Source: Eledone cirrhosa (lineage: Eukaryota). From it: a stretch of DNA of 64,000 bases. The stretch's first letter is position 1, and the number at the start of each line of letters is the position of its first letter. The stretch spans positions 97,402,001 through 97,466,000 of the forward strand of contig OZ024740.1 in the NCBI GenBank assembly GCA_964016885.1, given 5' to 3'. The position numbers were made by a program, and so were the translations under genes. Shown in pieces: positions 1,606 to 64,000 of this stretch. The notes beneath the pieces are model-generated. The model was not told the DNA's origin, did no database searches, and saw only the letters and a list, made by a program, of their open reading frames with translations.

Positions 1606-1680
<75 letters not shown>

Positions 1681-1733
1681 GTAAGTATGTATGTATACGT
1701 ACATACATATATGTATACAGACGTACAGTAGCA

Positions 1734-1785
<52 letters not shown>

Positions 1786-1951
1786 TATACATACATACAT
1801 GCAGGTACACATACATATATGCACGCTTCAGTTTAGCAGACGCTTATTATAGCGCTTGCTTTGTTCGTTTGTCAACAAACTGAACAGCCTGAATTTATGC
1901 CATACGGTGTTAAGGCAACCACGTCACCTTTTTGTTCAACACTGACACAGG

Positions 1952-1996
1952 AACGATGTACTAGTTTCAAGCTTGTTAGCTATCATCAGCACCGTT
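1952..1996 (-). ncRNA. Type I hammerhead ribozyme (minimal palindromic stem III)
   Basis: Minus strand: AACGGUG-CUGAUGA-U AGCU AACA AGCU U-GAAA-CUAG-UA/CAUCGUU; 7-bp stem I, GUA cleavage triplet; distal GUUCAAC/GUUGAAC helix. Confidence 0.9.
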
Positions 1997-2237
1997 TACC
2001 CATCTGCCAGATAGTTGAACGTTCGAAAGTATATACTTTCCTTATGAAAATTAACGGCTGAGCAGCCTAATTTGCATATTGAGTGAGTTAAATCGGTCAG
2101 GCATATCGAAAACGATAAGTTGAAAAAAATGAAAACGATAAACGAAATTTCATTTCTCACTCTTAGTATGGCACTTACTTAAATGTAAGTATGTATGTAT
2201 ACGTAGATACATATATGTATACAGACGTACAGGAGCA

Positions 2238-2285
<48 letters not shown>

Positions 2286-2451
2286 TATACATACATACAT
2301 GCAGGTACACATACATATATGCACGCATCAGTTTAACAGACGCTTATTATAGCGCTTGCTTTGTTCGTTTGTCAACAAACTGAACAGCCTGAATTTATGC
2401 CATACGGTGTTAAGGCAACCACGTCACCTTTTTGTTCAACACTGACACAGG

Positions 2452-2496
2452 AACGATGTACTAGTTTCAAGCTTGTTAGCTATCATCAGCACCGTT
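2452..2496 (-). ncRNA. Type I hammerhead ribozyme (second unit of the 500-bp repeat)
   Basis: Identical to 1952-1996. Confidence 0.9.
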
Positions 2497-2881
2497 TACC
2501 CATCTGCCAGATAGTTGAACGTTCGAAAGTATATACTTTCCTTATGAAAATTAACGGCTGAGCAGCCTAATTTGCATATTGAGTGAGTTAAATCGGTCAG
2601 GCATACCGAAAACGATAAGTTGAAAAAAATGAAAACGAAAAACGAAATTTCATTTCTCACTCTTAGTATGGCACTTACTTAAATGTAAGTATGTATGTAT
2701 ACGTACATACATATATGCATAGAAGTATTCTCTGGCAATGAACGAACAACGTATTTTGAAATATCCAGTTCTGCGTTTACAGATTGACTTTGTTATTTTC
2801 AGAAGATCACGTTAAGGATGAAAGCAGCGATTCTTTGCTTAAACTTTAATCTGTTATTTTAATAAATATGTTATATATATA

Positions 2882-3084: not shown

Positions 3085-3119
3085 ATATATATTATATATA
3101 TATATATTATATATAGTAT

Positions 3120-3500
3120 ATGTAAGTATGCATGTATACGTACATACATATATGTATACAGACGTACAGTAGCATGCACATATATATATATATATACATA
3201 TATATATACATATGCATACAGGTACACATACATATATGCACGTATCAGTTTACCGGCATAAATTCAGGCTGTTCAGTTTGTTTACAAACGAACAAAGCGA
3301 CGTTATAATAAGCGCCGCTAAACTGATACGTGCATATATGTATGTGTACCTGTATGCATATGTATATATATATGTATATATATATATATATGTGCATGCT
3401 ACTGTACGTCTGTATACATATATGTATGTACGTATACATGCATACTTACATTTAAGTAAGTGCCATACTAAGAGTGAGAAATGAAATTTCGTTTTCATTT
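3120..3500. repeat. Fold-back partial copy of the 500-bp unit
   Basis: About 3120-3250 is a direct copy of the unit start; about 3255-3500 is reverse complement of unit sequence; both sides lie in (TA)n. Confidence 0.8.
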
Positions 3501-3591
3501 TGTTTCAATATATATTATATATATATATATATTATATATATATATATTATATATATATATATATTATATATATATATATATTATATATATA

Positions 3592-4339: not shown

Positions 4340-4725
4340 GTGTGTGTTACAAATGTAAGGTTGTAACACCCACGTCCAGTAGGGCCTAGATAGGGTTAAC
4401 CGCCAATAGATTCAATCAGCGTCTTTACAGGCATACCCATTCTTTTCGTTACCCTCTAAGAAGGAATATGACGTCACTTTCAGCTTATATCTGGAGTCTA
4501 AAAGACGACCACACCCAATATAAGTTACACTGGGAGATCCTAGCTAGGGCTAGATCATATAACGGAAATAAAAGACCATGTGACCTCTGTGCCGCTGAGG
4601 CCCTGGAAATACTCTACGCCACAGACAACATCTTAAACAAAAAATCTGAGGCAATTTTGGCTTGTAAACATAAATTGCACAAAACTTTCCTGTATTACAG
4701 CCCCACGTTATACCCTAACGGATAG
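4340..4725 (+). pseudogene. PLE (Naiad-like) GIY-YIG endonuclease fragment
   Basis: CYKCKV..RA*IGLTANRFNQRLYRHTHSF..TSLSAYIWSLK..WEIL..CDLCAAE..LNKKSE..CKH; TAG at the Y of YIG. Confidence 0.85.
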
Positions 4726-6001
4726 TACGATCTATACGTGGATATTTTACGTCTTGATGTGGGAGCTAAGTATATGTTTTGTTTATACCATTACTTATTT
4801 GCATAGGTATGTATATATTACCCGTATGTTTTGTGAAGGTAAGTATACCTTCTCGTACGTATATCTGATTGTTTATGTTATGGCGTATAATTTTATATAT
4901 TCTGGTACATATGGTTTGGCTATGTGTATACGGGAGTTTTGCGTGTGTGTGAGTATGCAGGTTCGTACGTATGTAGGGTGTGTGTATGTGTACTTCATGT
5001 TTTGGTTGACTTACGTCTCCGAACATTCGTGTATTTACTTGTAGGTATGTGTGTGCGCTTGTTAGATACGTATTTATTTATTTATATACGTTAATGTAAT
5101 TATTTATTTATTTGTATACACGCATACACACACACACATATTTATATGTGCGTGGTTTTGTATACCTATGGTAAGTGTTTTGCGTATACTTGTGTATGTA
5201 CGTTTTTGTTTGCGTGTATGTATTTATTTATTTCTATTACTTCTGTATTGTATTTATTTACTTTGTTCTTAACTCTGATGCGGAGATTCATTCGGTCTCC
5301 TACTTAGAATTTTAGTCTACGACTTCTGCTATACCATTTAGGTGGTTTTGTCTTTGCGTGCTATTGTTCTCCACGCAGCACATATGACTCTTTATCTTCG
5401 TTTTTTTCGTTCATTGCCAGAGAACGTCTCTATGAACCACCTAAGAGAACATTAGTCTACGACCTCTTTATACCATTAACGTGGTTCTGTCTTTGCGCGT
5501 AATTGTTTTTCTCCGCCCCTATTAATGACGTATTATATTCGTTTTTTCCCGTTCTTTGCCAGCGAACGTTTCCACGAACCAAAGTATTGTCTTCCTGTCT
5601 TCCTCCGGTTGCAACGTTTTTTGAAATATCCAGTTCTGCGTTTACAGATTGACTTTGTTTGTTTCAGAAGATCCTGTATTAACTCTACAACTATTGAGCT
5701 TTGACAGTGGTCCCACTCATGTATACTGTTGAAGATGTAGAGAAAGACTGTAAAAACTAGCTTATCTTTATAATTTAAAATTGATACACATTACGATACT
5801 TTTTGCCTTATGACAGCTGGTTTTCACGCCGTAACATTAGATACATTATATACCCCCCACCTAAGTAATGTCAGGGTCTCCTTAAATAGTTTATTGATAG
5901 CATTGTTGTAATAATTGTTGTTGTTATTGTTCTAATTGAATGCCATAACTACTCCATATTTTCTTTTCTTTTCTTGCCTGTGTATTTTCTTCATTCTCGC
6001 A

Positions 6002-8372: not shown

Positions 8373-8550
8373 CAAAAAACGTTGCAACCGGAGGAAGACA
8401 GTATCGTCTTCCTGTCTTCCTCCGGTCGCAACGTTTTTTGAAATATCCACTTCTGCGTTTACAGATTGACTTTGTTAGTTTCAGAAGATCCCGTTAAGGT
8501 TGAAACCAGGGATTCTTTGCTTAAACTTTAATCTGTTATTTTGATAAATA
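8373..8550 (+). repeat. Dispersed repeat 3' end with a 28-bp-arm hairpin at its 5' junction; related copies at about 2720-2866 and 5310-5672
   Basis: TTGAAATATCCA.TTCTGCGTTTACAGATTGACTTTG occurs at about 2757, 5621 and 8438; inverted repeat 8373-8400/8413-8440. Confidence 0.7.
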
Positions 8551-8555
8551 TATAC

Positions 8556-8588
<33 letters not shown>

Positions 8589-10944: not shown

Positions 10945-13145
10945 ATTTATATTTAAACGTTAAGTTCAATCTATGTCTGCAGCAACTGAATAAATTATTC
11001 CTTAAATTAAGGGAATTTTTGGTCTTTAATATAAAGAATATTTCCTCTATACAAAGATCACAATTTTCTGAAGAGGAATTAAAAGGAGTAGCTTATGAAA
11101 TAATATTCCAAATCAGTGAATATTCAAAATTATCTCGTTTTAGGTGCCCTAATAGGCTAGATAGCGAAGTTGAAGATTTTTTGTTTGTATCTGTAAAATA
11201 ATTTTTCTGATTATTGAAGCGGGATTTAAATTCTGTAGAGGTAGAACAGACATAATTAAATGAATTTAAATTAGTTTTAACATTACAATTATAAACTACA
11301 TTTTTAGCTAAGCAGTTGTTATTTAACGGACAGTTGGATTTATTTCTACAGTTACAATTATTCGATTGAATATTGCTTGGGTTATTATTGGTATTTTGGT
11401 TAGGTTTTAAATTTCTATTATTAATTCTATTAATATTTTGTGCTAAATTTTTTGGGGAAGAATAAGTTAATTTTATAGTATGTCTATTAAAAATTGAGTA
11501 ATATTTATGTGTTCTAGGGAAGCGTTTGTCAAGAGCTTCAAAGAATAGTTTAGCAATAGGGGTTTTAATATTTAGTGAGAAAGGAGGAGCGAACCATAAT
11601 ATATTCCTAGTTCTATTTCTTTTTCGGCTTTCGGAATTATTGTAATGTTTTCTATTACAGTTGTTAAAAGTGTTACCATAATTAAAGTTGTTATTATTTT
11701 GGTTAGTTTGTATATTATTATTATTATCGATGTATTTAATTTTATTTCTATACCCAGCTCTACCTAACGCTTCGTTGTAATAATGCGCTTTTTCATCAAA
11801 TATATTCTTATTTGATGAAATTCTTGAAATTGGTTCTATTGTATTTTTAACGGATCTGGGGTGATTAGAGTTAAAATTGACATCCTTTAAGTTCTCATTT
11901 AGTTTGTGAAATGTATAATGAAGACATGTGTTGAGATATAGTGTTACATCAAGAAAATTTACTATTTTATGGGTATTCTCTATTTCTACTTTTAGATTAA
12001 GGTAATTAAAAAATTGTATAATTTGTTTTCTTTTTCTATTTAGTTCACAGCTATTATTTTCTATAAGTAAAAGCATGTCGTCACGATATAAGCCTCCGGT
12101 TACACCTGATATTTTTCTATGTAGAGAATTAATTATAAATAGGCCCACAAGGTCCGTTACCTGAGCTGAGTCTGAAGATCCCATAGTTGTGTCGAAATTA
12201 TTATTTCTATCTGCCCTCGTCCAGAGTTCGTTATTAAATTCTATTAATGTTTTCCGTGCCGATAATATAATGTGCATTTCATTGCTAGTTAGGTCTGTAT
12301 GTTTAAATGCGTAAGTTAGTGCCTTATTCAGTAGATTAGGAGTGATAGATGAGTAGTAGTTAGCAATATCCAACTGAATAATCTTATTATTATAGTTATA
12401 TTTAATTTCTTTAAACCAATCGATAACCTCACTAGTCCCTTTCCATAATTTTAAGTAAGATAAATTAGGTAATAATTTTATAATTTGTTGTATTACCCTG
12501 TCTAGAATATTTTTGCCAAGTTGTCCCAGGTCAGATTTGGATGGTGCAATTAATCTGACTGGTAAATCATTTTCAAAGTTTCTTTTATGATCCTTCATAT
12601 TGATCTTAGGTTTCCTAGGCATGAAAGGTTGTGTTTTATTCTCAATGTCTAATTCATGCATTATACAAGATGCATCTGTATTAAGTTTTTCAAGTTCATC
12701 CTTACTTGCTACCTTCTACTTTTTCCTTAGTTCTTTCAATATAAGGTCGTTATACATGTCCTTTTGTACTCCATAAAGCTTGTTAGTTTTGTCCGACTTC
12801 ACTAAAATTTTGTCTGTTTTCTCCAGGTTTTCAATATTATCCTTAATACATCTTAAGTAGTCCTGGCCTTTGAAGTTTCTCTTGAATTTGATGCCTTGGA
12901 TGATAGATACTATATCGTTTTCAAAATCCATTAGTAATTTGTTGGGGGTGGAATATTTTAGATTTGAAAATTTTGTCCAGATTTGAAACATTTTCATTTA
13001 GATTAGATTTATCAAAGTGGAAAGCACGCCACCTGATTCTTCTTATAAAAGAGTCTGATTTTTCTATTAATTGTTTAATAATATCTTTATTTCTAGGTAG
13101 AGGTATGTCTTTTAGAGAAGAAGAAGAGATCTTAAAGAATTCCAT
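10945..13145 (-). pseudogene. PLE RT + GIY-YIG endonuclease ORF, disrupted
   Basis: FIRRIRWRAFHF, KSDKT, LDIANYYSSI, MGSSDSAQV, GLYRDD, VNFLDVTL, SNHP, WFAPPF, CNCRNKSNCPL (CxCx5C), VVYNC..YVC, CDLCIEE..CCRH; frameshift near 12970, in-frame TAG at 12716, TAA at 11093. Confidence 0.92.
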
Positions 13146-13670
13146 TTTTTCAGTTATAATGTAAAGCGCTCAACAATATAGGAGCAGAATATATGCAAAA
13201 GTTCTATTTAAAGTTGTTGGGATACAACAAGCAAATATTTTTATAACTGATATAAAGCACTCGACAAATTTTTGGAGTCACTGTCCCCCTCTCTCTATAT
13301 AGTATTTCTCTCTCTTGAGTTTCTATTTCTGTATGATGACTTGATATCTCTCTGTTGCTTTCCTTTGTTTTTCTTATTCCTTTCTTTTCTTTCTTTTTTA
13401 TTTCCTCCTATCTTTATCTATCTCTTTCTTTTCTCCATACATTTCTCTCTCCGATATTTCTTCAGGTTTTCTTTCTTTCTCTTTTCTTTCTCTCTCTCTC
13501 TGTCTTTGTTCTTTTATCTTTTTTTCTCTTTCTTTCTCTCCGTCTTTTTCTAATTGTGCTTAACACTATGACTTATTATTTAAACAAATCACTATCCAGA
13601 CAGCCTCTAAAAGTAATGGTTGTATTTTAAAGGGTACGTCAAACCTATTTGTAAAACTGTTATATATTGT

Positions 13671-13733
13671 ATTTTGTCTGATGAAGGCATACCATAATTT
13701 AATGTGGTATCCCTGAAATATGTATAATGAAAT
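13671..13733 (+). ncRNA. Type I hammerhead in the inverted PLE pLTR
   Basis: AUUUUGU-CUGAUGA-AGG C AUACCA..UGGUAU C CCU-GAAA-UAUGUA-UA/AUGAAAU, overlapping AATAAA. Confidence 0.85.
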
Positions 13734-14001
13734 AAATATGGTTTTATAAATATAGTTTCCATTTATTAGTATCGTATATCTACTCCAAAAATTTGTCGAG
13801 TGCTTTATATCAGTTATAAAAATATTTACTTGTTGTATCCCAACAACTTTAAATAGAACTTTTGCATATATATATATTATATATATATTATATATATATT
13901 ATATATATATATATTATATATATATTATATATATATTATATATATATTATATATATATATATTATATATATATATATTATATATATATATCATATATATA
14001 T

Positions 14002-21114: not shown

Positions 21115-24100
21115 CTACAGGCGCATGATCAGAGTAGGCCCACTCACGCGGGCCATTCTCGCCACATTCACCCACCTTTCAGTAAATGTACTGGGGGGCA
21201 GCACTTCTCTCTCCACCCTCACCTTCCTTTCCAAGTGAAACTTGAAGAAGTTGATGAGGGATTGGCCGAAGAGAAAAGTGTCTGTCTTCAGTCCTTTCAA
21301 CCTGGTCCACCATGCAACCTCTTTCGCTACTGCCACCAGGCAGAGGAAAATTGCCTGCCCTTCCTGACCAAAAGAAGGCGGCGGGTCAATCTTCACTATG
21401 GACTCGGACGATAGCCGGATCCGTTCTACACGCGACAATAGCTGTTCGACATAACCCCACAAGTCAGCAATGCACGGACACTGGACGAGTGCGTGCAGAA
21501 CGGTTTCGTCGCTCTGCGCGCATCTCGGGCAGGTTCGTCTGACAGCACTTCCGTGCCTGTAGAGTTTATCCCGAACCGGCAGCGCCCCCCGGTAGCACTG
21601 CCAAGCGAGGGATTTCTGGAAGTTATCCATCGTCCCCGGCTCGAAAGTCCTCCGGAACATACTGGTCAGTTCTACTTCGTTGACGCCCAGAGCCTCTCCT
21701 AGTACGTCATCGCACTTGCCCTCCACTAATCCTCTATAGAAATCTTGAGTGGAAGTTCCACTGACCGCATTGCCCACCTTGCAGAGTGCAGTGAGCGCCT
21801 GGCAACATTCCAGATTCCAGTCGCCCAGTCTCGGTCTCTTCTTGACCCAGGACTGCAGCTCAGTCAAAGAGATGAGCTGCGGAAAGGCCCGTCTAACAAA
21901 CGGCGACCACACCTGTTCACCGTTTAGGCAAAATATCTGGAGATGTCGCAGCCTCAGCGCATGTCTGCGCATCATTAGCCACGGCATGCCCAGCCCTCCA
22001 CGAAGAGGGTGCTGGCAGCAGATGGACCGCCTCACCAACGGGACCCGTCCCCTCCACAAAAATTTGAAAAGGAGCCGTTCCAAATTGGCGAGGCGTGGAC
22101 GGGGGCAAGGCACGACGGTCAGGCGGTAGTAGATGACGGACGCGATGTACGCGTTCGCCACCTCCGCCCGCCCTTTCAGTGATAGCTTTCTCTCAGCCCA
22201 TTTCTGGGTGAGGTTGGCTATCCTGCTCGTCACCTCGTCCCAATTCTTATCCACCTGGAGGTCTGGTCCGAACCAAACCCCGAGCAACTTTACCGGTCCG
22301 TCTGTCCAGCGCCCAACGACGCTGTTGGACGGCATGGACTTGCCTCTCCAGGTGCCGAGCTGCAAGCCCACCGACTTTTCCGGGTTAAGTTTTGCTCCCG
22401 TCAACCTTTCATATTCCTCCAAATGGGTGCGGATCACCTCGATTTCCGAGGTGTCCGACACCATCACGGTGATGTCGTCCGCATAAGCGGACGCAGCCTT
22501 TCTACGTCCCGGTTCGAGCGGGATGCCCTGCAACAACTCCAGCTTCCGCAGTAGAGGCTCAAGAGTCAATACGTACAGAAGTGAGGAGAGAGGGCACCCT
22601 TGACGGACCGATCGAGAGATCTGAAACGGTTCCGAGAGGTGGCCATTAACTTTGACCACCGAGCGGATGCCGCTGTACATTGCAGCGATCCAGCTTCTGA
22701 AGACGGGGCCGAAGCCAGCCGCCTCGAGGACAGCCTCCAAGTACCGATGGTCGACCCTATCGAATGCTTTCGATTGATCTAAATTGATCAGAGCCCCACC
22801 GAAGCCAGGTTTGCACCCAACCCTCTCTATGATGTATCGCATGAGGTGGAGGTTGTCGTGTATGGACCTGGTCGGGATTGCGCAAGTTTGCGCCTCCCCA
22901 ACCAAATCTTTGACGACAAGCGCCAACCTTTTCGCTAACACCTTGGCCAAAATCTTAAACTCTGTGTTGAGCAGGGTTATGGGCCTGAAATTATCTAGTG
23001 TGTCCCTCTTGTTCTCGTCTTTCCTTATCAGCGTCACTACGCCACGGCTCACAGAACTGGGAATGCTCCCGTTCTGCTGCCAGTTGCAGTAGAGCGCTTC
23101 GAGGAGATCGGAGAACAAGTCTGGCATATTTACGTAAAGCTCGTAGGGCAGACCATCCAAACCGGGTGACTTGCGACTCGAGCAGCCGACAAGGGCGTCC
23201 TGAATTTCGGCTGATGTTATCGGCTCTTCGCAGCGCTCAGCGTCGGCCGTCGAGAGGCGTGGCAAGCCGTCGAGGTAGGGACTGAAGTCCGCCGCCGTCT
23301 CCGACTCACCCATCCTCCCGAACAATCGAGCAAAGTGCTGGCGAAAGGCCTCACACATCTGCTTGGAATCGCTCAGTTCGTGTCCATCTCGATCCGTCAA
23401 AGACCGAATTGTGGTTTTATTTCCACGCTGCGTCTCTGCAAAGCGAGCCCATCGGGCAGCTTTGGTTCCCTCGTTCCTCAGAGCACGCGCCTTAGCTCTG
23501 ACAATGCAACCTTCGTGTTTCGCATTGAAGAAATGGTCTAGTGCCATTCTCGCCGCTAGCACGTCTGTTGCAATGCCACTACAAATAGCCTCGTCTAACT
23601 TAGCTATCAGCCCCTCCTCTTTTCTATTTTTCTCTATTGCTACTTCTTTGCTAAATCCTATCGAGGTTGCTCTAATCTCTCTTTTGAGTGCCCCCCACCA
23701 CCTGTTGTTGACAACCCCCCCTGTCAACTTTTGCTTAACTAAGTTGTTGACCCGGTCCCTGTAAGCTTTACGTGCCGGAAACGACATGTTTAGCTTCCAG
23801 TAGCTAGGTCCTAACCTACGTGTCTTATCTAGGTCGACCATACAGATCACAAGCTTGTGATCTGAATAGGCAACCGTTTTAAAATGTGGACATCCTACAC
23901 TATTTCTATCTCTTTTCCTAATGAAAATCCTATCTATGTACGATCTAGATGACCCTATGCGATTGGTCCAGGTCCATACTGGCGCATTAGGGAAATCTAG
24001 TCGGTACCTGTCAGACAGTTGAAACTGGCTGATCAGGTACTTGAGGCTTTTGCACCCCCCGCTCCTATCAGATACTCCCACACAATCCCAGCGTGCTTCT

Positions 24101-24534
24101 AAGATGCCATTCCAATCCCCTATTAACAGTAAAGGGCGAGACGTAAGCAGAAAGTTTTCCAGGCGCCTAAAGAAGTCCGGCCGACCGGCCCCAGTAGGGG
24201 CGTAGACGGCCACCAGTCTAAAGGCACCACCTTCGCTATTGCTCACGTCCAGGACCACCAACTTTCCGTCAGGATCCCGGAAGATTGACCTTACCTCGAG
24301 ATCCAGACATTTCCTAAACAGCACAGCCACTCCACCTCCCATTCCCGGCCGACTAACAGATGCAAAGATCTGATAATCGTCGAAAATCGGCGCCAGTGCG
24401 CGTGTGTCGGAAATTCTGGTCTCGCTGATGGCAATTACATCTATTCCTAGTGACCTGAGGTCGTTGAGCAAGTGACCTTGCTTCCAGGGCGACCCCAGGC
24501 CACGAACATTTAAACTTCCTACTCTTATGGCCAT
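21115..24534 (-). CDS. LINE ORF2: APE endonuclease + reverse transcriptase + C-terminal CCHC
   Basis: 1139 aa; SLNVRGL, ISET, VYAP, GDWN, YIDRIF, SDH; KSPGLDG, FRPITLLN, LDQSKAFDRV, RQGCPLS, AYADD; CPRC..ETVLHALVQC. Confidence 0.97.
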   Translation of the reverse strand: MAIRVGSLNVRGLGSPWKQGHLLNDLRSLGIDVIAISETRISDTRALAPIFDDYQIFASVSRPGMGGGVAVLFRKCLDLEVRSIFRDPDGKLVVLDVSNSEGGAFRLVAVYAPTGAGRPDFFRRLENFLLTSRPLLLIGDWNGILEARWDCVGVSDRSGGCKSLKYLISQFQLSDRYRLDFPNAPVWTWTNRIGSSRSYIDRIFIRKRDRNSVGCPHFKTVAYSDHKLVICMVDLDKTRRLGPSYWKLNMSFPARKAYRDRVNNLVKQKLTGGVVNNRWWGALKREIRATSIGFSKEVAIEKNRKEEGLIAKLDEAICSGIATDVLAARMALDHFFNAKHEGCIVRAKARALRNEGTKAARWARFAETQRGNKTTIRSLTDRDGHELSDSKQMCEAFRQHFARLFGRMGESETAADFSPYLDGLPRLSTADAERCEEPITSAEIQDALVGCSSRKSPGLDGLPYELYVNMPDLFSDLLEALYCNWQQNGSIPSSVSRGVVTLIRKDENKRDTLDNFRPITLLNTEFKILAKVLAKRLALVVKDLVGEAQTCAIPTRSIHDNLHLMRYIIERVGCKPGFGGALINLDQSKAFDRVDHRYLEAVLEAAGFGPVFRSWIAAMYSGIRSVVKVNGHLSEPFQISRSVRQGCPLSSLLYVLTLEPLLRKLELLQGIPLEPGRRKAASAYADDITVMVSDTSEIEVIRTHLEEYERLTGAKLNPEKSVGLQLGTWRGKSMPSNSVVGRWTDGPVKLLGVWFGPDLQVDKNWDEVTSRIANLTQKWAERKLSLKGRAEVANAYIASVIYYRLTVVPCPRPRLANLERLLFKFLWRGRVPLVRRSICCQHPLRGGLGMPWLMMRRHALRLRHLQIFCLNGEQVWSPFVRRAFPQLISLTELQSWVKKRPRLGDWNLECCQALTALCKVGNAVSGTSTQDFYRGLVEGKCDDVLGEALGVNEVELTSMFRRTFEPGTMDNFQKSLAWQCYRGALPVRDKLYRHGSAVRRTCPRCAQSDETVLHALVQCPCIADLWGYVEQLLSRVERIRLSSESIVKIDPPPSFGQEGQAIFLCLVAVAKEVAWWTRLKGLKTDTFLFGQSLINFFKFHLERKVRVEREVLPPSTFTERWVNVARMARVSGPTLIMRL

Positions 24535-24563
24535 GCTGGCAGGATGAATGGGAGAGGAAAGGT

Positions 24564-26474
24564 TTACTTACCTTCCGGGGTCTTGTGAAGGTCGGGTGGT
24601 TCGACCTCCATGGTTTGTGGGGTTTCTTTTGGGAACCCCTTTAATAGTCTTGACGTGGGTTTTACGTTCGGGGTTCCCACATCCCGAGGAAAGCTCTTTC
24701 GAATTTCTTTGTATGAAGCGAGCGACATTCGCATCAGAAGCAAATTATCTGGTACGCGAAATGTGCTCGCTTCAAATGTTTCCCCGTCTTTTTCGATGTT
24801 TGTGCTTCGTGCTACATGGGCCATCAATTCCTTGTTGGCCCTTCTGGCAAGCACGAAGTTTTTAATGTTTTGTTGCTCGGGTTTTATTTGTTCGTGTGAT
24901 TGTGGTGGTGATAGCTTTGTTAGTGTTGTTTCTATTGTGTCTGCGTTTGTTGTGGGTGGGGTGTCTGTAGTTTCTGATGTTTGTGTGTCTATTTGTTCTT
25001 GTGTCTGTTTAGCTTGTTTGCGTTTGGGGGATTTTGGTGGTTGTGTTGGTGATGCTGTGGGGAAAATGTTTGTGTGGGTGGTGTGTGTATTTTTTTTTGT
25101 GGGGGTGTTTGTGCTTTGTGGATTTCTTTTTTTTTTGTGTTTTGTTTTTTGTATTTTGGGGGACTTTGGTTTTCCCTCATCTTCACTGCTGGAGGATGAG
25201 GGGTCTGTGGCTGTGAGCGTGTTTGTGTCTGAGTGAGTGTTTATGTTCTTGTTCGTGTGTGTATTTTGGGGGGGAGGGGGAATGGGAGAGCTTTCCTCGT
25301 TTCCCCCCTGGGTGTGCAATTTTGGTGGTTCCATTGTTGACGGTGTTGCTGGTGGTCCTTGTCCCGGCGTCGCCAGCAGTGGAATCTTTCGACCCCTTGC
25401 GCTTTTCGGCAGTTGAGGGCAGAAGGCTCGCAAGTGTGTCGTTTCCCCACAAAGGAAACAATGCGGCCTTTTGCCCTCAGTCATTATATGCAACACCCTC
25501 CCGTTTTGGAGGCGGATGTGGTCCGGGATTGTTTTTACGTTTTCGGGTCTGATTTGGAGCAGTATCTCCAGATCAACCCCGGACCAGTCGTCCCTGGCAG
25601 TTCTCGTTGCCTCTACCGGGACTGTATCCGTTCCTTCCACGATTACGCAACCCAGGAGCCACCACATATCAAGTCCTGGTGGAATCCTGGGAATGCGCAC
25701 ACGTGCTATTCGTTTTCCCATGTGGGAGGGGTACATTATGACCTTGCTGGTTTTGCAAGGGGTCATTGAATGCTTCACAGCGAGGGCTTCAGACTTGAAC
25801 AGCACCGAAACGGTGCCGTATTGCCTGCCCCTCTCTATGAAGTCTGTGTCCTCTCTGATGTATTTCAGTGCGGCTTCTATGTCAGCTTGGGCGATTATCG
25901 CTGCCCTCTTTGTCTCTACTGAGATGCATCTGAAATGCACCGTTCTTTTTTCCACTGCCTCAATGGCTTCTGCCGGGACAGTTAAGTTTGCCCAGGTCTG
26001 CTCTTGATTTATGATTTTCCAGGCCTGGGCCAACTTTTCCTCTCTGTTGGTTAAGTCGATGCTGTAGCATGGTCTCCTTTTAGCCGCTGCCACAGCAGCG
26101 AAAGTGTTCTTGTTGGTGTTGTCACTGTTGTTGTTCTTGTTGGTGTTGCTGCTGCTATTGCTGTTGTTGTTCTCCCCTGTGTCGTGGTTACCCTCTGTGC
26201 TGTTGGCCTTGTTGGTGCTGTTGCTGTCGCTACTATTACTCTCTGTGCTGTTCGTTTTGTTGGTGCTCTCGCTATTACCACCTTCTGCGCTGTTCGGCTT
26301 GTTGGTGTTGGTGTTGTCGCTGTTACCACCTTCCGCGCCGCTCGGCCCGTTGGTGCTGGCACTGTCGCTGCTCACATTCGTGCTGGTGGCGCTCCTCGCC
26401 TCACCTCTCCTCTCAACGCTCAAGTCGCCGTTGCACGACAGCAGACCCGCCTCTAGGGGGCGTGGCTCCGCCAT
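24564..26474 (-). CDS. LINE ORF1 (gag-like; CCHC zinc knuckle; S/N- and P/T/K-rich low-complexity flanks)
   Basis: 636 aa open; CFLCGETTHLRAFC knuckle; ends 29 nt upstream of the ORF2 ATG. Confidence 0.9.
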   Translation of the reverse strand: MAEPRPLEAGLLSCNGDLSVERRGEARSATSTNVSSDSASTNGPSGAEGGNSDNTNTNKPNSAEGGNSESTNKTNSTESNSSDSNSTNKANSTEGNHDTGENNNSNSSSNTNKNNNSDNTNKNTFAAVAAAKRRPCYSIDLTNREEKLAQAWKIINQEQTWANLTVPAEAIEAVEKRTVHFRCISVETKRAAIIAQADIEAALKYIREDTDFIERGRQYGTVSVLFKSEALAVKHSMTPCKTSKVIMYPSHMGKRIARVRIPRIPPGLDMWWLLGCVIVEGTDTVPVEATRTARDDWSGVDLEILLQIRPENVKTIPDHIRLQNGRVLHIMTEGKRPHCFLCGETTHLRAFCPQLPKSARGRKIPLLATPGQGPPATPSTMEPPKLHTQGGNEESSPIPPPPQNTHTNKNINTHSDTNTLTATDPSSSSSEDEGKPKSPKIQKTKHKKKRNPQSTNTPTKKNTHTTHTNIFPTASPTQPPKSPKRKQAKQTQEQIDTQTSETTDTPPTTNADTIETTLTKLSPPQSHEQIKPEQQNIKNFVLARRANKELMAHVARSTNIEKDGETFEASTFRVPDNLLLMRMSLASYKEIRKSFPRDVGTPNVKPTSRLLKGFPKETPQTMEVEPPDLHKTPEGK

Positions 26475-26688
26475 GTTTTTTTGAGAAAAAAATTATTATT
26501 TTTTTTTTTCAAAATAAAGTTCAAATATTTGGGCCAAAAGGCCCAAATATTATGAGTTATTCCTTCACAGGATACAAATTAATGTCTTATAATGCTTCAG
26601 CGGTACAAAAAATAAACAATTCTCTACAATTAATCCTCAAAAAATTGCTTACTCACGGAGCTTCAAAAAACGTACATCCACTTTCGTC

Positions 26689-38599: not shown

Positions 38600-40578
38600 C
38601 AGTTGCATTTATCTTGCTTTATGCTCATGTGAGTTATCACCAAGTCACAACCAGTGACCTCAAGAGATGACAAGGTCCCCCATGTTCAAGAAAGAACATA
38701 CATACACACACATGCATCTTTAGGTGTTTAGACTTGTGATGTACTTATATTTACAGAATCTTCCTTAGTATATGGGCAGTTCCCATTAGTACTATCTTTT
38801 GTATTTCTCCTATACGCGGGTTTCTTGGGATTTGTGATAAGTAATCATTAGACCCCTTAGGTATCATTCCTAGAGTTCTTACAACCACTGGTATTGTTTT
38901 AGTTCTCAATTTCCACATTTTTCCAATTTCTATCTCCAGGTCCTTATACTTGCTCAATTTTTCAAATATTTTTATAGATACATTCTTGTGTATTGGAACG
39001 GACATATCAATTAGCAGGCATACCCTCTTTTTAAAGTCCTTCAGTATTATATCAGGTCTATTTGCATCTATTTTTCGGTCTGTTTGGATGCTAAAGTTCC
39101 ACTAGATTGAGATGTGATCTTTTCATGTATGGGAGGTGGTTGATGCTCCCACCAAATCTTTTGATGGGACAGGTCAAAATGCTTACACATTATGCAATGT
39201 ATGTCTTGTGCAGCTCTGTCATGCCTGTTTAGGTATTCGGTTGGAGCTATAGGGCTGCACATTGAAATTATATGATCAATGGTCTCTGGTTGTTTTTTAC
39301 ATACACGGCATAATGGGTTGCATCCATTTTTTATTATGTTGGCTTGGTAATTTTTTGTTGGCAGACACTGATCTTGTGCTGATATAATCAGTCCTTCAGT
39401 CTCCGATTTCAGTCCAGAGGATGCCAACCACTGATGGGTTAAAGTTTTGTCAACATCAGGATTATTAGCTCTTTCTGGGTATTTTCCATACAGAGGCTTT
39501 TCTTGCCATTTCTAGGCCAGTTTCTGTAGCAGTTCTTTCTTTGCAGTTACTTTTACCTGCTTTGCTTTTTCTGTGTTTTCCATTTCAGCAGTAAATGGGA
39601 CTTCTGAAATGTGTAGTCCATTACTGTACATGTGTGCATCTTTTGTAATGGAGTATGATCTTTTGATGCTTTCGTGTTTCAAAACGAGTTTGATCACCCA
39701 ATCATGTGATTCCCTTAGATATGTATATAATCCAATTGTTGCAGTTTTCAACACAATATCTAACTGGATTAACCCACGTCCTCCTTCTTTCCTAGGGAGA
39801 TATATTCTATCTGTATCTGCCTTAGGGTGATGCATTCTGTGCATGGTTAAGAATTTTCTAATTTTTATATCGAGCCTACGGATCTCTGTGCTTGACCAGT
39901 TGATGACATTGTAACTGTAGGTTACTACTGGTATGGCAAGTATGTTTATGGCATCGACCCTATTCCTTGCATTCAATTCCGTTATTAAGTTTGCTCTTAC
40001 TCTGCGGTAACATTCCTTCCTTATCCTTTCCCTTATTGTCGAGAGCTTGATTCCGTCTCCTTCACAAATACCTAGATATTTGTAAGTTTCCTCTTGTTCA
40101 AGTTCTCTTATCACATTCCCCCGATCAAGATAAATGTCTGAACTTTTCAGCAGATTTCTTCTGGTGAACGCAGCTTTGGCGCACTTATCTAGTCCAAACT
40201 GCATTTTAATGTCATCACTGAACTGCTCCACAGTGGATAATAGCCCTTGCAATTGTTCATCATTTTTTGCAAATCGTTTCAGGTCATCCATGTAGAACAA
40301 GTGATTAATGGTTTTGTCATAGACTTTATATCCATGTTTTGTTTCATTGAGCATTTTACTTAATGGTATAAGTGCGATGCAGAATAAAAGCGGTGATAAA
40401 GAGTCACCCTGAAATATTCCACAATTAATATTAACTTCTCCAGCTTCCAGTGATTCCTTTTCACTATTCAAAAGGAGTGTCGTTTTCCATGTCTTCATAC
40501 TGAATGACAAGAACCTCCTGACAACGGGAGATATTTTGAAAATATCTAAACATTTTTCAATCCAACTGTGTGGCAAAC
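38600..40578 (-). mobile_element. 5'-truncated R4/Dong-like LINE (RT + CCHC + restriction-like endonuclease) in (TAA)n
   Basis: PHSWI, GIFQGDSLSPLLF, HLFYMDD, YKYLG, LPRKEGGRG; SETEGLIISAQDQ, CRVC..ETIDHIISMC, RHD, RPDII..LIDMSVP..EKLSKYKDL; (TTA)n on both flanks; a few stops and frameshifts. Confidence 0.9.
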
Positions 40579-40622
<44 letters not shown>

Positions 40623-43600: not shown

Positions 43601-45455
43601 AGCCCTGAGGGCGGCTGGCTTTGGGCCCGTCTTCAGAGGCTGGATCGCTGCGATGCACAGCGACATCTGCTCTGTCGTGAGAGTGAACGGTCACCTTTCG
43701 GAACCGTTCAACATCATGCGCTCGTTCCGCCAAGGATGTCCCCCCCCGTCCCTCTTGTACGTATTGACTCTCGAGCCATTACTGCACAAACTGGAGACTT
43801 TGAGGGGGGTCCCGCGCGAACAAGGATGCGGAAGATCCGTGTCATCATATGCGGACGATGTCACCGTAGTGGTGTCGAATGTCAAACACATCGAGACGAT
43901 CGGCATTACACTAAGAGAGTACGAAGCGGTGACAGGAGCAATGATCAACCAGGAAAAGTCAGTGGGCCTGCAGCTCGGCACCTGGATAGGCAGGTCCATG
44001 CCGTCCAACAGCGTCGTCGGGCGCTGGACGGACGGACCAGTTAAATTGCTCGGGGTCTGGTTCGGTGCGGATCTCCAGACGGACAAAAACTGGGATAAGG
44101 TGACGAATAGGGTGGCTTCTCTCATCCAGAAATGGGCAGAGAGGAAGCTATCCCTGAAAGGTCGAGCGGAGGTGGCTAACGCGTATATCGCGTCCGTTAT
44201 CTACTACCGCCTGACCGTCGTACCTTGTCCTAAGCCCCGCCTGACTGCGCTGGAGCGTTTGCTCTTTCGCTTTTTGTGGAAGGGACGCGCTCTGATGGTC
44301 AGCGGTCCATCTGCTGTCAACACCCGCTATATGGAGGGTTGGGAATGCCGTGGCTGATGATGCGCAGACACGCGCTCAGGCTACGAGATCTCCACCTCTT
44401 CCTCGACGGTGATCAGGTGTGGTCTCCGTTTGCTAGACGCGTCTTTCCCCAGCTCTTCTCCTTGACGGAGCTGCAGTCTTGGGTCAAGCGAAGACCGAGA
44501 GGGAGCGCTTGGAGACTGGAATGTCTTCAGGCGCTCACAGCCCTCGACCAATCGGGCAATGTGATCGGTGGAAATTCCACCTTGGCGTTCTATAGAGTAT
44601 TAGTGGAGGGGAAGAGCGACGACGTACTTGGGGAAACTCTAGGCGTCGACGAAAATCAACTAGCCAATCTCTTCGGAAGAACTTTCGGGCCGGGGCCTAT
44701 GGACAACTTCCAGAAATCCCTGGCCTGGCAGTGCTACCGAGGAGCTTTGCCAGTTCGGGATAAACCCTACAATCATGGAGGTGCCGTCAGCCGGGCATGT
44801 CCGAGATGCGCGCAGGGCGACGAAAACGTCCTGCACGCACTCGTCCAGTGTCCGAGCATTGACATGTGGGTTTATGTCGAACACCTGCTGTCGCGTGTAG
44901 GACGGATCCAGCTATCAGCAGGGTCCATCGTGAGGATTGCCCCGCCCTCCTCCTTTAGCCGGGAAGGGCAGGCAGTTTTTATCTGTCTGGTGGTCATGGC
45001 GAAAGAGATAGTATGGTGGACACGTTTGAAAGGGCTGAAGACGAGCACTTACCTCTTCGGTGATGCCCTGATTAACATTTTCAAATTTCATTTGAAAAAG
45101 AAAATCAGGTTAGAGAGGGAAGTGCTCTCTTCCCAGCATTTTGTTGAAAGATGGGTGAGAGAGGCAAGTATGGCCCGAATGAATGGGCCTTCTCTGAATA
45201 TGTGTCTGTAAATTAAAGGTGGAAAACTGGGAGAGGGCACTTGCCCTGGTGATCAGGGTCACTGTGGTCTTTTAATGGGCTTTCTCCACAAATGTCCCTC
45301 GGAAGTCTCCCCCCTATTGGGGAATTTTTCTTTGTTATTTTATTACATCCTCTGTTTTCTTTTACACGCAGAAATGCCCATTTGTACCGTCCTGTATTGT
45401 CCTGTACTGTCCTTAATGTCTACTTTATGTAAACCCTTGTGGTTAATAAAGAAAA

Positions 45456-59033: not shown

Positions 59034-59510
59034 TATATAATATATATATATATTATATATAATATAATATATCATAAATTGAGTATTAAAATAAATGTAG
59101 AAAGATTGCTTCAATTTCCATTATAATATGCATTCATATCTTCAAACCCATGAGATTCTGTTTTAGATCACACAGCCTGGCATTATCACCATCATTTAAT
59201 GGCCATTTTCAACACTAGCTTGGGTTAGGTGAGCAGATCCATTGTAAGATAAGCCAGGTCGGAGAATGGTGTTTGGCTCACACAAACCGATTTTGGCTTA
59301 GAAGTGAGGCCGAACTAGACAAGTGGGAGAGATGCTATACAGAGAATTACCTTTCCAACCCATGCAAACAAGGAACAACAGTCGTAATATGATGAGGATG
59401 ATGATGGTGATGATGATATATTTCAGAGTGTAAGAAAGAAATACAGATAGGGAGTCAGAAAGATATATATAAATAATGAAATAAACATATATATATATAT
59501 ATATATATAT

Positions 59511-62500
59511 TGGAATAAATGCTCTGAAATAGCGATATATATGTGAATATAGACATAGAATATTCGAAAATATTCTGTATGTTTATAATAAACATTTTGA
59601 AGACCTAATCGCTATAGAATAGAATACGTCACGTATTACAATTAGATTCTCGATAAAAGCAAGGGAAGTAATCTACGCGTTTCATTCTTGTTAGAAATCA
59701 TCAGGACTACATATCCAGTGCTTTTATCGAGAATGACACAGCTAGAGACTTATAGAATACTTAGCTGTGTACAGGAACTGGTTTGAAAGAGCGGTTGCCG
59801 GTCCGGCAGAAATTAGAAATTGGAATAAATGCTCTGAAATAGCGATATATATGTGAATATAGACATAGAATATTCGAAAATATTCTGTATGTTTATAATA
59901 AACATTTTGAAGACCTAATCGCTATAGAATAGAATACGTCACGTATTACAATTAGATTCACGATAAAAGCAAGGGAAGTAATCTACGCGTTTCATTCTTG
60001 TTAGAAATCATCAGGACTACATATCCAGTGCTTTTATCGAGAATGACACAGCTAGAGACTTATAGAATACTTAGCTGTGTACAGGAACTGGTTTGAAAGA
60101 GCGGTTGCCGGTCCGGCAGAAATTAGAAATTGGAATAAATGCTCTGAAATAGCGATATATATGTGAATATAGACATAGAATATTCGAAAATATTCTGTAT
60201 GTTTATAATAAACATTTTGAAGACCTAATCGCTATAGAATAGAATACGTCACGTATTACAATTAGATTCTCGATAAAAGCAAGGGAAGTAATCTACGCGT
60301 TTCATTCTTGTTAGAAATCATCAGGACTACATATCCAGTGCTTTTATCGAGAATGACACAGCTAGAGACTTATAGAATACTTAGCTGTGTACAGGAACTG
60401 GTTTGAAAGAGCGGTTGCCGGTCCGGCAGAAATTAGAAATTGGAATAAATGCTCTGAAATAGCGATATATATGTGAATATAGACATAGAATATTCGAAAA
60501 TATTCTGTATGTTTATAATAAACATTTTGAAGACCTAATCGCTATAGAATAGAATACGTCACGTATTACAATTAGATTCTCGATAAAAGCAAGGGAAGTA
60601 ATCTACGCGTTTCATTCTTGTTAGAAATCATCAGGACTACATATCCAGTGCTTTTATCGAGAATGACACAGCTAGAGACTTATAGAATACTTAGCTGTGT
60701 ACAGGAACTGGTTTGAAAGAGCGGTTGCCGGTCCGGCAGAAATTAGAAATTGGAATAAATGCTCTGAAATAGCGATATATATGTGAATATAGACATAGAA
60801 TATTCGAAAATATTCTGTATGTTTATAATAAACATTTTGAAGACCTAATCGCTATAGAATAGAATACGTCACGTATTACAATTAGATTCTCGATAAAAGC
60901 AAGGGAAGTAATCTACGCGTTTCATTCTTGTTAGAAATCATCAGGACTACATATCCAGTGCTTTTATCGAGAATGACACAGCTAGAGACTTATAGAATAC
61001 TTAGCTGTGTACAGGAACTGGTTTGAAAGAGCGGTTGCCGGTCCGGCAGAAATTAGAAATTGGAATAAATGCTCTGAAATAGCGATATATATGTGAATAT
61101 AGACATAGAATATTCGAAAATATTCTGTATGTTTATAATAAACATTTTGAAGACCTAATCGCTATAGAATAGAATACGTCACGTATTACAATTAGATTCT
61201 CGATAAAAGCAAGGGAAGTAATCTACGCGTTTCATTCTTGTTAGAAATCATCAGGACTACATATCCAGTGCTTTTATCGAGAATGACACAGCTAGAGACT
61301 TATAGAATACTTAGCTGTGTACAGGAACTGGTTTGAAAGAGCGGTTGCCGGTCCGGCAGAAATTAGAAATTGGAATAAATGCTCTGAAATAGCGATATAT
61401 ATGTGAATATAGACATAGAATATTCGAAAATATTCTGTATGTTTATAATTAATATTTTGAAGACCTAATCGCTATAGAATAGAATACGTCACGTATTACA
61501 ATTAGATTCTCGATAAAAGCAAGGGAAGTAATCTACGCGTTTCATTCTTGTTAGAAATCATCAGGACTACATATCCAGTGCTTTTATCGAGAATGACACA
61601 GCTAGAGACTTATAGAATACTTAGCTGTGTACAGGAACTGGTTTGAAAGACCGGTTGCCGGTCCGGCAGAAATTAGAAATTGGAATAAATGCTCTGAAAT
61701 AGCGATATATATGTGAATATAGACATAGAATATTCGAAAATATTCTGTATGTTTATAATAAACATTTTGAAGACCTAATCGCTATAGAATAGAATACGTC
61801 ACGTATTACAATTAGATTCTCGATAAAAGCAAGGGAAGTAATCTACGCGTTTCATTCTTGTTAGAAATCATCAGGACTACATATCCAGTGCTTTTATCGA
61901 GAATGACACAGCTAGAGACTTATAGAATACTTAGCTGTGTACAGGAACTGGTTTGAAAGAGCGGTTGCCGGTCCGGCAGAAATTAGAAATTGGAATAAAT
62001 GCTCTGAAATAGCGATATATATGTGAATATAGACATAGAATATTCGAAAATATTCTGTATGTTTATAATTAATATTTTGAAGACCTAATCGCTATAGAAT
62101 AGAATACGTCACGTATTACAATTAGATTCTCGATAAAAGCAAGGGAAGTAATCTACGCGTTTCATTCTTGTTAGAAATCATCAGGACTACATATCCAGTG
62201 CTTTTATCGAGAATGACACAGCTAGAGACTTATAGAATACTTAGCTGTGTACAGGAACTGGTTTGAAAGAGCGGTTGCCGGTCCGGCAGAAATTAGAAAT
62301 TGGAATAAATGCTCTGAAATAGCGATATATATGTGAATATAGACATAGAATATTCGAAAATATTCTGTATGTTTATAATAAACATTTTGAAGACCTAATC
62401 GCTATAGAATAGAATACGTCACGTATTACAATTAGATTCTCGATAAAAGCAAGGGAAGTAATCTACGCGTTTCATTCTTGTTAGAAATCATCAGGACTAC

Positions 62501-64000
62501 ATATCCAGTGCTTTTATCGAGAATGACACAGCTAGAGACTTATAGAATACTTAGCTGTGTACAGGAACTGGTTTGAAAGAGCGGTTGCCGGTCCGGCAGA
62601 AATTAGAAATTGGAATAAATGCTCTGAAATAGCGATATATATGTGAATATAGACATAGAATATTCGAAAATATTCTGTATGTTTATAATAAACATTTTGA
62701 AGACCTAATCGCTATAGAATAGAATACGTCACGTATTACAATTAGATTCTCGATAAAAGCAAGGGAAGTAATCTACGCGTTTCATTCTTGTTAGAAATCA
62801 TCAGGACTACATATCCAGTGCTTTTATCGAGAATGACACAGCTAGAGACTTATAGAATACTTAGCTGTGTACAGGAACTGGTTTGAAAGAGCGGTTGCCG
62901 GTCCGGCAGAAATTAGAAATTGGAATAAATGCTCTGAAATAGCGATATATATGTGAATATAGACATAGAATATTCGAAAATATTCTGTATGTTTATAATA
63001 AACATTTTGAAGACCTAATCGCTATAGAATAGAATACGTCACGTATTACAATTAGATTCTCGATAAAAGCAAGGGAAGTAATCTACGCGTTTCATTCTTG
63101 TTAGAAATCATCAGGACTACATATCCAGTGCTTTTATCGAGAATGACACAGCTAGAGACTTATAGAATACTTAGCTGTGTACAGGAACTGGTTTGAAAGA
63201 GCGGTTGCCGGTCCGGCAGAAATTAGAAATTGGAATAAATGCTCTGAAATAGCGATATATATGTGAATATAGACATAGAACATTCGAAAATATTCTGTAT
63301 GTTTATAATAAACATTTTGAAGACCTAATCGCTATAGAATAGAATACGTCACGTATTACAATTAGATTCTCGATAAAAGCAAGGGAAGTAATCTACGCGT
63401 TTCATTCTTGTTAGAAATCATCAGGACTACATATCCAGTGCTTTTATCGAGAATGACACAGCTAGAGACTTATAGAATACTTAGCTGTGTACAGGAACTG
63501 GTTTGAAAGAGCGGTTGCCGGTCCGGCAGAAATTAGAAATTGGAATAAATGCTCTGAAATAGCGATATATATGTGAATATAGACATAGAATATTCGAAAA
63601 TATTCTGTATGTTTATAATAAACATTTTGAAGACCTAATCGCTATAGAATAGAATACGTCACGTATTACAATTAGATTCTCGATAAAAGCAAGGGAAGTA
63701 ATCTACGCGTTTCATTCTTGTTAGAAATCATCAGGACTACATATCCAGTGCTTTTATCGAGAATGACACAGCTAGAGACTTATAGAATACTTAGCTGTGT
63801 ACAGGAACTGGTTTGAAAGAGCGGTTGCCGGTCCGGCAGAAATTAGAAATTGGAATAAATGCTCTGAAATAGCGATATATATGTGAATATAGACATAGAA
63901 TATTCGAAAATATTCTGTATGTTTATAATAAACATTTTGAAGACCTAATCGCTATAGAATAGAATACGTCACGTATTACAATTAGATTCTCGATAAAAGC
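59511..64000 (-). repeat. 310-bp tandem array (14 full units plus a partial, runs off the window), one hammerhead per unit; non-LTR retrozyme-like
   Basis: Units start at 59511+310k and are almost identical; no ORF in the track; the array abuts (TA)n. Confidence 0.95.
59668..59710 (-). ncRNA. Type I hammerhead ribozyme; repeated at +310k up to 63698-63740 (14 copies)
   Basis: GUAGUC-CUGAUGA-U UUCU AACA AGAA U-GAAA-CGCG-UA/GAUUAC; stem I extended by GGA/UCC and a perfect 16-bp helix (59646-59661 with 59719-59734). Confidence 0.93.

What the first reader, a model, noticed from the sequence alone, without database searches (positions are those of the whole stretch)
1952..2496. Second tandem HHR family shares an unusual, covarying stem II with the 310-bp array
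The 500-bp unit and the 310-bp unit show no similarity I can see outside the ribozyme, yet both read CUGAUGA-U-[4 bp]-AACA-[4 bp]-U-GAAA-[4-nt palindrome]-UA. The stems differ but pair: AGCU/AGCU vs UUCU/AGAA, and CUAG vs CGCG. Both have a bulged, extended stem I. A U.U at 10.1/11.1 replaces the usual G-C. Inference: a conserved HHR subclass whose AACA loop docks with the stem I bulge.
Basis: partly seen in the sequence, partly recalled or inferred. Interest (0 to 1): 0.75.

Follow-up and report, generated by a model that had tools for sequence, protein, structure and literature searches.

The report
Two canonical hammerhead retrozyme families
Two unrelated-looking repeat families in this animal genome carry the standard animal form of a predicted self-cutting RNA (hammerhead); the 'unusual' U·U mismatch they share is real and recurrent but is a known variant that close relatives swap for other pairs, so this is likely an ordinary pair of jumping RNA repeats rather than a new ribozyme class.

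Summary
Minus-strand type I hammerhead cores lie at 1965-1989 and 2465-2489 (500-bp family A) and in the 310-bp array (family B); 15,720 genomic matches share the motif (control 0). The reading 'unusual subclass' mostly fails. The 14 nt between CUGAUGA and GAAA are the canonical 4-bp helix II plus 6-nt loop; A and B align without gaps there to Rfam HH9, and the invariant loop A and helix I U1.7 are the known Schistosoma-type contact. U10.1·U11.1 is published (natural hammerheads; axolotl retrozyme). It is not fixed: 46% of exact B cores have A-U, and A's homologues have G-C, C·A or A·A. It does recur, though: older families J and K keep U·U with different helix II pairs. AACA is not constant. 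Both families insert as back-to-back arms with two fixed ends in (TA)n, the Penelope footprint; earlier scan notes already reported this layout on other DNA of this genome. Verdict: new members of the metazoan non-LTR retrozymes; cleavage, expression and any tuning role of the mismatch are untested.

The parts
1672..2721 (-). Family A arm: 2.1 head-to-tail units of a 500-nt non-coding monomer (34% GC, internal TA microsatellite); 3' end at monomer position about 283 running into (TA)n, 5' end truncated at position 238
1934..2020 (-). Type I hammerhead, copy 1, with extended helix I. Proximal helix I 1990-1995/1953-1958, UA bulge 1997-1998, U1.7 at 1952, core 1983-1989 and 1965-1968, U10.1 1982, U11.1 1969, hexaloop UAACAA 1973-1978, palindromic helix III ACUAGU 1960-1965, predicted cut between 1959 and 1958
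   Evidence: sequence, folds, HH9 alignment, covariation
2434..2520 (-). Type I hammerhead, copy 2, identical to copy 1; predicted cut between 2459 and 2458, so that double cleavage would release a 500-nt monomer
2070..2077 (-). ATGCAAAT block kept in families A, old A, C, D and one E copy, upstream of a TATA-like stretch; resembles an octamer promoter element (name recalled, function untested); second copy at 2570-2577
2722..2870 (.). Pieces of the 3' region of a Penelope-like element: about 27 nt (minus) fused to the 5' end of the A arm through imperfect microhomology, then its 3' end with tail (plus, 2747-2870) running into (TA)n; takes the place of the usual second arm
3117..3501 (.). Short back-to-back family A insertion that lacks the ribozyme
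59509..64000 (-). Family B arm: 310-nt units, 14 hammerheads in the window; the arm continues about 9.6 kb beyond the window (44 complete units in all) and then inverts; 3' end at monomer position 165 in (TA)n
59974..60026 (-). Representative family B hammerhead: helix I GUAGUC/GAUUAC, UA bulge, U1.7, U10.1 at 60007, hexaloop UAACAA, helix III ACGCGU

Best explanation
The 500-bp and 310-bp repeats are two families of animal non-LTR retrozymes, each unit carrying a canonical-geometry type I hammerhead that is predicted to self-cleave and likely tolerates a U·U mismatch at the base of helix II. Shown: the conserved core, covarying helices I and II, an invariant loop-end A and helix I U1.7, a palindromic helix III, over ten thousand A and over eight thousand B cores, and back-to-back arms with two fixed outer ends in (TA)n. 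Inferred: tandem transcripts fold two-ribozyme dimers through the self-complementary helix III (ACUAGU, ACGCGU); loop II docks on the helix I bulge by the known A(L6)·U1.7 Hoogsteen contact; cleavage after UA gives unit-length RNAs that a host ligase circularises; a Penelope-type reverse transcriptase/endonuclease nicks (TA)n DNA, starts at two fixed internal sites and copies one template repeatedly from both strands. A and B look alike in helix II because both obey the same canonical fold and use the commonest loop of this genome, not because they form a separate subclass.
For: Geometry: A, B, C and J all align gap-free across helix II/loop II to Rfam HH9 (4 bp + 6-nt loop); the canonical metazoan hammerhead is described as helix I 6 bp, helix II 4 bp, helix III 1-2 bp with a palindromic 2-4 nt loop, active as dimers (PMC4209133). 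Contact: A at L6 pairs by Hoogsteen with the U next to residue 1.6 in the Schistosoma structure (PMC2553840; PMC11875169); both bases are invariant in 15 of 15 representatives. Covariation: 13 of 16 pairs change on both sides, 92.9% of cells paired, 0 of 500 shuffles as high; all 6 proximal and 3 distal helix I pairs and pairs 10.2-10.4 covary, while 10.1/11.1 is unpaired in 9 of 15 and L1/L6 never varies. U·U known: PMC3088659, axolotl HHR_Amex2 (PMC7229834). U·U dispensable: 4,587 U·U versus 3,924 A-U exact B cores in units 99% identical, both forming young two-armed insertions; 15,810 same-geometry cores lack U10.1. Mobility: 14 of 14 opposite-strand neighbours within 1 kb among the first 100 matches are back-to-back; 12 of 12 complete two-armed B insertions have one short (135-139) and one long (154-172) end; 7 of 7 A insertions printed have one short and one long end; both arms carry the same variant set in 8 of 8 B insertions (6 different sets); two internal start sites and a tail are the Penelope signature (PMC11167929; Craig et al.).
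Against: No cleavage or circularisation was assayed. In one preprint only 1 of 9 predicted Xenopus retrozyme dimers cleaved in vitro, so a perfect-looking motif need not be fast. Rfam scores (18.5-36.5 bits) are below the HH9 gathering score of 52, and the window has no gathering-level hit. In A the minimum-energy fold pairs part of the core with helix III bases and is no more stable than shuffles (z = -1.0; B z = -4.0). U·U is kept across B, J and K while the three pairs above it change completely, which hints at more than tolerance. The 15 representatives were hand-picked, are related, and some came from searches that fixed loop letters, so invariance there is partly built in. No autonomous partner was identified by sequence.
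Confidence: 0.82

Rival explanations
1. The 10.1·11.1 mismatch is a selected brake: retrozymes of this genome repeatedly weaken the first helix II pair so that circles or multimers survive long enough to be reverse-transcribed.
For: U·U persists in B, J and K with three different helix II sequences; the A lineage shows three different mismatches (U·U, C·A, A·A); about half of the counted canonical-geometry cores are U·U (15,720 + 349 versus 15,810); the axolotl U·U ribozyme cleaves slowly as a monomer.
Against: A-U copies of B (46% of exact cores) and G-C family C are also abundant and young; the first 100 matches fall into about 10 B(U·U) and 12 B(A-U) clusters, so array length does not differ visibly; U·U is reported as the best-tolerated mismatch, so recurrence is expected from tolerance alone.
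Confidence: 0.15
2. One reading: a distinct hammerhead subclass defined by U·U plus a 4-bp stem and an AACA tetraloop with its own docking mode.
For: A and B, unrelated outside the core, share U·U and UAACAA; MFE folds pair the loop-closing U-A.
Against: The same loop occurs with G-C (family C) and A-U (B variant); U·U occurs with other loops (CAAACA, CAACCA, UAAAAA) and L1·L6 is C·A in 22 of 24 J copies; loop middle varies (UAAUAA, UAAUGA, UAACGA); register equals HH9.
Confidence: 0.05
3. These are satellites amplified at the DNA level, with a fossil ribozyme carried along.
For: The long window array has interspersed recurrent variants, as expected from later unequal exchange; cleavage is not needed for Penelope insertion in vitro.
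Against: Fixed two-ended, back-to-back insertions at thousands of dispersed sites; intact core and covarying helices across families that are only 67-80% identical or unalignable elsewhere.
Confidence: 0.05

Closest known systems
Metazoan non-LTR retrozymes, especially axolotl HHR_Amex2/Rtz_353 (Cervera and de la Pena 2020, PMC7229834; passages and parts 2-4 of 6 read; supplement not readable)
   Same: Tandem non-coding units of a few hundred bases, GC under 45-50%, one canonical type I hammerhead per unit, short palindromic helix III; Amex2 has a U·U mismatch at the base of helix II.
   Different: A is 500 nt, above the 170-400 nt of that paper (within the 51-972 bp range of the Li et al. preprint); Amex2 has a 2-bp helix III capped by a tetraloop, A and B a 6-nt palindrome; expression and circles were shown there, not here; the two-armed fixed-end layout is not in the parts read.
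Schistosoma Sm-alpha / human HH9 class of type I hammerheads (Rfam RF02275; Chi et al. 2008, PMC2553840, passages; Cervera and de la Pena 2014, PMC4209133, passages)
   Same: 6-bp helix I, U1.7, 5' bulge, 4-position helix II, 6-nt loop ending in A; same register in the Rfam alignment.
   Different: U·U instead of G-C at 10.1/11.1, UA rather than UC cleavage triplet end, minimal helix III; scores below the family cut-off.
Natural U10.1-U11.1 hammerheads (Perreault et al. 2011, PMC3088659, passages)
   Same: Helix II starting with a U·U mismatch, called the best-tolerated mispair.
   Different: There a rare variant; here about half of the counted cores in one genome.
Penelope-like elements and their insertions (Frangieh et al. 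2024, PMC11167929, parts 1-2 of 4; Craig et al. 2021 preprint, passages; Li et al. 2026 preprint, parts 1-3 of 5)
   Same: Inverted 5'-truncated partner copy, a tail on one end, two internal start sites, AT-rich or (TA)n targets.
   Different: A and B encode no protein and show no similarity to the 3' region of the one young autonomous family examined; tail lengths about 26 nt (B) and 60 nt (A) versus 30-40 bp.

Membership tests
Canonical metazoan type I hammerhead | Core CUGANGA, GAAA, UH in type I order | tested here: met
Canonical metazoan type I hammerhead | Helix I of 6 bp with bulge and distal helix, supported by covariation | tested here: met
   6 of 6 and 3 of 3 pairs change on both sides
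Canonical metazoan type I hammerhead | Helix II of 4 positions with a 6-nt loop | tested here: met
   gap-free to HH9; pairs 10.2-10.4 covary
Canonical metazoan type I hammerhead | G10.1-C11.1 pair (usual, with published exceptions) | tested here: not met
   U·U in A and B; exception documented in PMC3088659 and PMC7229834
Canonical metazoan type I hammerhead | Loop-end A and U1.7 for the tertiary contact | tested here: met
   15 of 15; U1.7 in 22 of 24 J copies; the contact itself is inferred from PMC2553840
Canonical metazoan type I hammerhead | Short palindromic helix III allowing dimers | tested here: met
   ACUAGU and ACGCGU self-duplex at -4.8 and -7.5 kcal/mol
Canonical metazoan type I hammerhead | Self-cleavage | not testable with these tools
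   needs an in vitro assay
Rfam Hammerhead_HH9 (RF02275) | Score at or above gathering threshold 52 bits | tested here: not met
   18.5 (A), 19.2 (B), 22.7 (J), 36.5 (C) bits
Non-LTR retrozyme | Tandem non-coding units, each with an intact type I hammerhead, at least two in a row, low GC | tested here: met
   34% GC
Non-LTR retrozyme | Dispersed multicopy family with signs of retrotransposition | tested here: met
Non-LTR retrozyme | Expressed as unit-length linear and circular RNA | tested here: inconclusive
   the available runs could not address it
Proposed new 'U·U/AACA' subclass | U·U and the AACA loop always occur together | tested here: not met
Proposed new 'U·U/AACA' subclass | A fourth Watson-Crick pair closing a tetraloop | tested here: not met
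   no covariation at L1/L6; C·A in 22 of 24 J copies
Minimal PLE hammerheads (min-HHR) | Long helix II (7-8 bp), poorly defined loop 1, location in the terminal repeat of an RT-coding element | tested here: not met
   PMC4209133

The most novel reading that the evidence does not exclude
Retrozymes in this genome are under selection to keep the hammerhead's most conserved helix II pair broken (U·U held through complete turnover of the stem in the B/J/K families, and U·U, C·A and A·A arising in the A lineage) as a brake that lets RNA circles persist as rolling-circle templates for Penelope reverse transcriptase; the near-identical U·U and A-U versions of the 310-nt unit are a natural experiment for it.
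Probability: 0.15. Interest if true: 0.6.

Novelty: new member of a known kind. Interest (0 to 1): 0.3.

Why it matters
As it stands it adds two large, young retrozyme families from an animal group for which my searches found no description, and shows that about half of this genome's canonical-geometry hammerheads lack the 10.1-11.1 pair that many search descriptors demand (PMC3088659 rejects such hits by default) and fall below Rfam cut-offs, so genome counts of hammerheads are probably low. It also offers a clean matched pair (U·U versus A-U in a 99% identical unit, both still mobile) to test whether cleavage rate matters for retrozyme spread. It is not a new ribozyme class.

Tried and rejected
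Rfam at gathering threshold: no hit in the window; miRNA and snoRNA hits at 2170-2390 are TA-repeat artefacts. Pfam did not recognise the three Penelope-like fragments, so their identity rests on motifs and tblastn. Expression: no RNA holder listed; the runs laid (X1, X3, X5, X6 on A; X1, X2, X5, X6 on B) are contigs of unknown kind, show no cut ends, and the 310-nt wrap-around contigs in X5 and X6 fit a tandem array as well as a circle. Autonomous partner: ten loci of one young RT-endonuclease family were fetched; no canonical core inside the element and no similarity to A, B or C; adjacency of A arms to this element in L061, L063 and L004 is explained by shared (TA)n targets. Array length versus 10.1/11.1 state: no visible difference in the first 100 matches of each. 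Alignment A3 including J and K was misaligned around helix III and was not used for pair counts; J and K were counted in fixed register instead. Literature searches with little yield; two key papers (Martick and Scott 2006; Hammann et al. 2012) are not held, and the supplement of PMC7229834, which shows the mussel, coral and other invertebrate ribozymes, could not be read, so an identical published motif cannot be excluded. The host taxon was not tested.

Full report
Observation. Family A cores lie at 1965-1989 and 2465-2489 in a 500-bp repeat of 2.1 copies; family B has 14 cores at 310-bp spacing from 59680. The loose core pattern has 17 window matches against 1.2 expected. The monomers share only the core, TA-rich stretches and hits of at most 14 nt. 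In the 3.0-Gb genome the shared pattern has 15,720 matches and its reversed control none; 10,718 are exact A cores and 4,587 exact B cores.

Re-reading the stem. A and B align in exactly this register, without gaps, to the Rfam HH9 consensus, with the mismatch flagged at the first pair; scores are 18.5 and 19.2 bits against a cut-off of 52. A 2014 paper defines the canonical metazoan hammerhead as helix I 6 bp, helix II 4 bp and a 1-2 bp helix III with a palindromic loop that works in dimers (PMC4209133, passages). The structure paper states that an A at L6 of the Schistosoma loop makes a conserved Hoogsteen pair with the U next to residue 1.6 (PMC2553840, passages). A and B both have that A and that U, and a UA bulge at the HH9 position.

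Is U·U a subclass marker? I searched for the same geometry without U at 10.1 and found 15,810 matches, control 0. They include family C (466-469 bp, G-C, same UAACAA loop), D (C·A or C-G), E (A·A) and a B variant with A-U. The B variant has 3,924 exact cores, 46% of the 8,511 exact B cores, in a unit 99% identical to B, and forms its own young insertions. C is 67% identical to A over 258 nt outside the ribozyme, D 71-77%, and A, C, D and one of two E copies share an upstream block, so A's relatives lack U·U while unalignable B has it. Against this reading, a search for U·U with other stems gave 349 matches (control 3): family J, about 68-80% identical to B over 45-240 nt, with CGC/GCG, and family K with GGA/UCC. 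So U·U has been kept while the stem turned over. In J the loop starts with C and L1·L6 is C·A in 22 of 24 copies, U1.7 is kept in 22 of 24; the fourth 'pair' and AACA are therefore not features of U·U ribozymes. U10.1-U11.1 is published as a natural variant and the best-tolerated mismatch (PMC3088659, passages) and marks one of the two axolotl retrozyme ribozymes (PMC7229834, parts 2-4 of 6).

Covariation. On 15 hand-picked representatives of six groups, 13 of 16 pairs change on both sides, 92.9% of cells pair (shuffles 72.4 +/- 2.1, 0 of 500 as high) and sliding the partners drops pairing to 31-49%. All helix I pairs and 10.2-10.4 covary; 10.1/11.1 is unpaired in 9 of 15; L1/L6 never varies. 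The rows are related, were chosen by me from the 65 or so distinct contexts, and some came from searches that fixed loop letters, so these numbers are descriptive, not probabilities. Helix III hexamers are self-complementary (-4.8 and -7.5 kcal/mol). The A ribozyme folds no better than shuffles (z -1.0), B does (z -4.0).

What the repeats are. Mapping monomers on fetched loci shows two arms whose 5' ends meet at variable positions and whose outer 3' ends are fixed, not at the cut site, and run mostly into (TA)n. Among the first 100 genome matches, 14 of 14 opposite-strand neighbours within 1 kb are back-to-back. I fetched loci chosen for having both strands, so the share of two-armed insertions is not estimated; among them 12 of 12 complete B insertions have one short (135-139) and one long (154-172) end, one further locus had a single arm, and 7 of 7 A insertions printed have one short and one long end. 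Both arms carry the same variant set in 8 of 8 B insertions with whole units on each side, which fits repeated copying of one template. An inverted truncated copy, a one-sided tail and two internal start sites are the Penelope signature (Craig et al. preprint, passages; PMC11167929, parts 1-2 of 4), and a recent preprint argues that animal retrozymes are non-autonomous Penelope derivatives (parts 1-3 of 5). The genome holds a young family with 713-residue open frames bearing RT and GIY-YIG-like motifs (motif names recalled, Pfam silent), but it shares no sequence with A or B. In this window the A arm is fused at 2722 to pieces of that element's 3' region through imperfect microhomology; one case, suggestive of a template switch. 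I saw the two-armed layout before the look-up; earlier scan notes report it for 310-, 466- and 478-bp units elsewhere in this genome.

Mechanism and limits. Shown: motif, covariation, copy number, insertion geometry. Inferred from known families: dimeric cleavage, loop-bulge docking, circularisation, Penelope-driven copying. Not shown: any RNA, any rate, any role for the mismatch. Only 1 of 9 predicted Xenopus retrozyme dimers cleaved in one test. Searches for a description in octopus or other cephalopods found none (general search), but the host taxon was not tested and the supplement showing other invertebrate ribozymes could not be read.

Verdict. Real feature, new members of a known kind. 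The subclass claim is not upheld; the residual interest is the recurrence of mismatches at 10.1/11.1 and the natural U·U/A-U pair in family B.

Noticed in passing
window 2722-2870: The A arm is fused to about 27 nt of a Penelope-like 3' region via imperfect microhomology, and the opposite arm is that element's 3' end with tail: a possible chimeric insertion naming a candidate mobilising enzyme.
   Followed up: partly
L214:1489-1544 and other family J loci: In family J the second bulge base is G (UG in 17 of 24) and loop position L5 is C (21 of 24), whereas A, B, C and HH9 have A and A. From memory the Schistosoma ribozyme has A and U there; if so this would be a compensatory tertiary pair. Recalled, not verified.
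   Followed up: partly
L083, L138, L183: One subfamily of the A-U variant of B has an extra C in the 3' strand of helix I (311-bp unit) that shifts U1.7, yet forms young two-armed arrays.
   Followed up: partly
window 2070-2077 and homologues: ATGCAAAT block plus TATA-like stretch conserved upstream of the ribozyme in A, C, D and E; possible internal promoter (motif name recalled).
   Followed up: partly
window 11093-12997 (-) and 13650-13750 (+): Broken Penelope-like frame with an inverted arm carrying a long-helix-II hammerhead (core 13678-13718, A...U at 10.1/11.1).
   Followed up: partly
window 4348-5673 (+), 8373-8565: 5'-truncated copy and a short two-armed end of a young Penelope-like family; no canonical hammerhead core was seen inside ten fetched copies, although such elements are said to carry one.
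   Followed up: partly
L126-L136, L033-L040: Further dispersed hammerhead-like families with U at 10.1 and 11.1 but other loop lengths (12-nt and 18-nt helix II regions) and weak helix I.
   Followed up: no
L061:6687-9106: Family A units alternate in length (494, 484, 502, 484), possibly a dimeric template or later duplication.
   Followed up: no
window 21115-26492 (-), 41827-45211 (+), 38751-40645 (-): A long-ORF non-LTR retrotransposon with an apparently intact 1150-aa frame, a decayed relative, and a fragment of another RT element.
   Followed up: no
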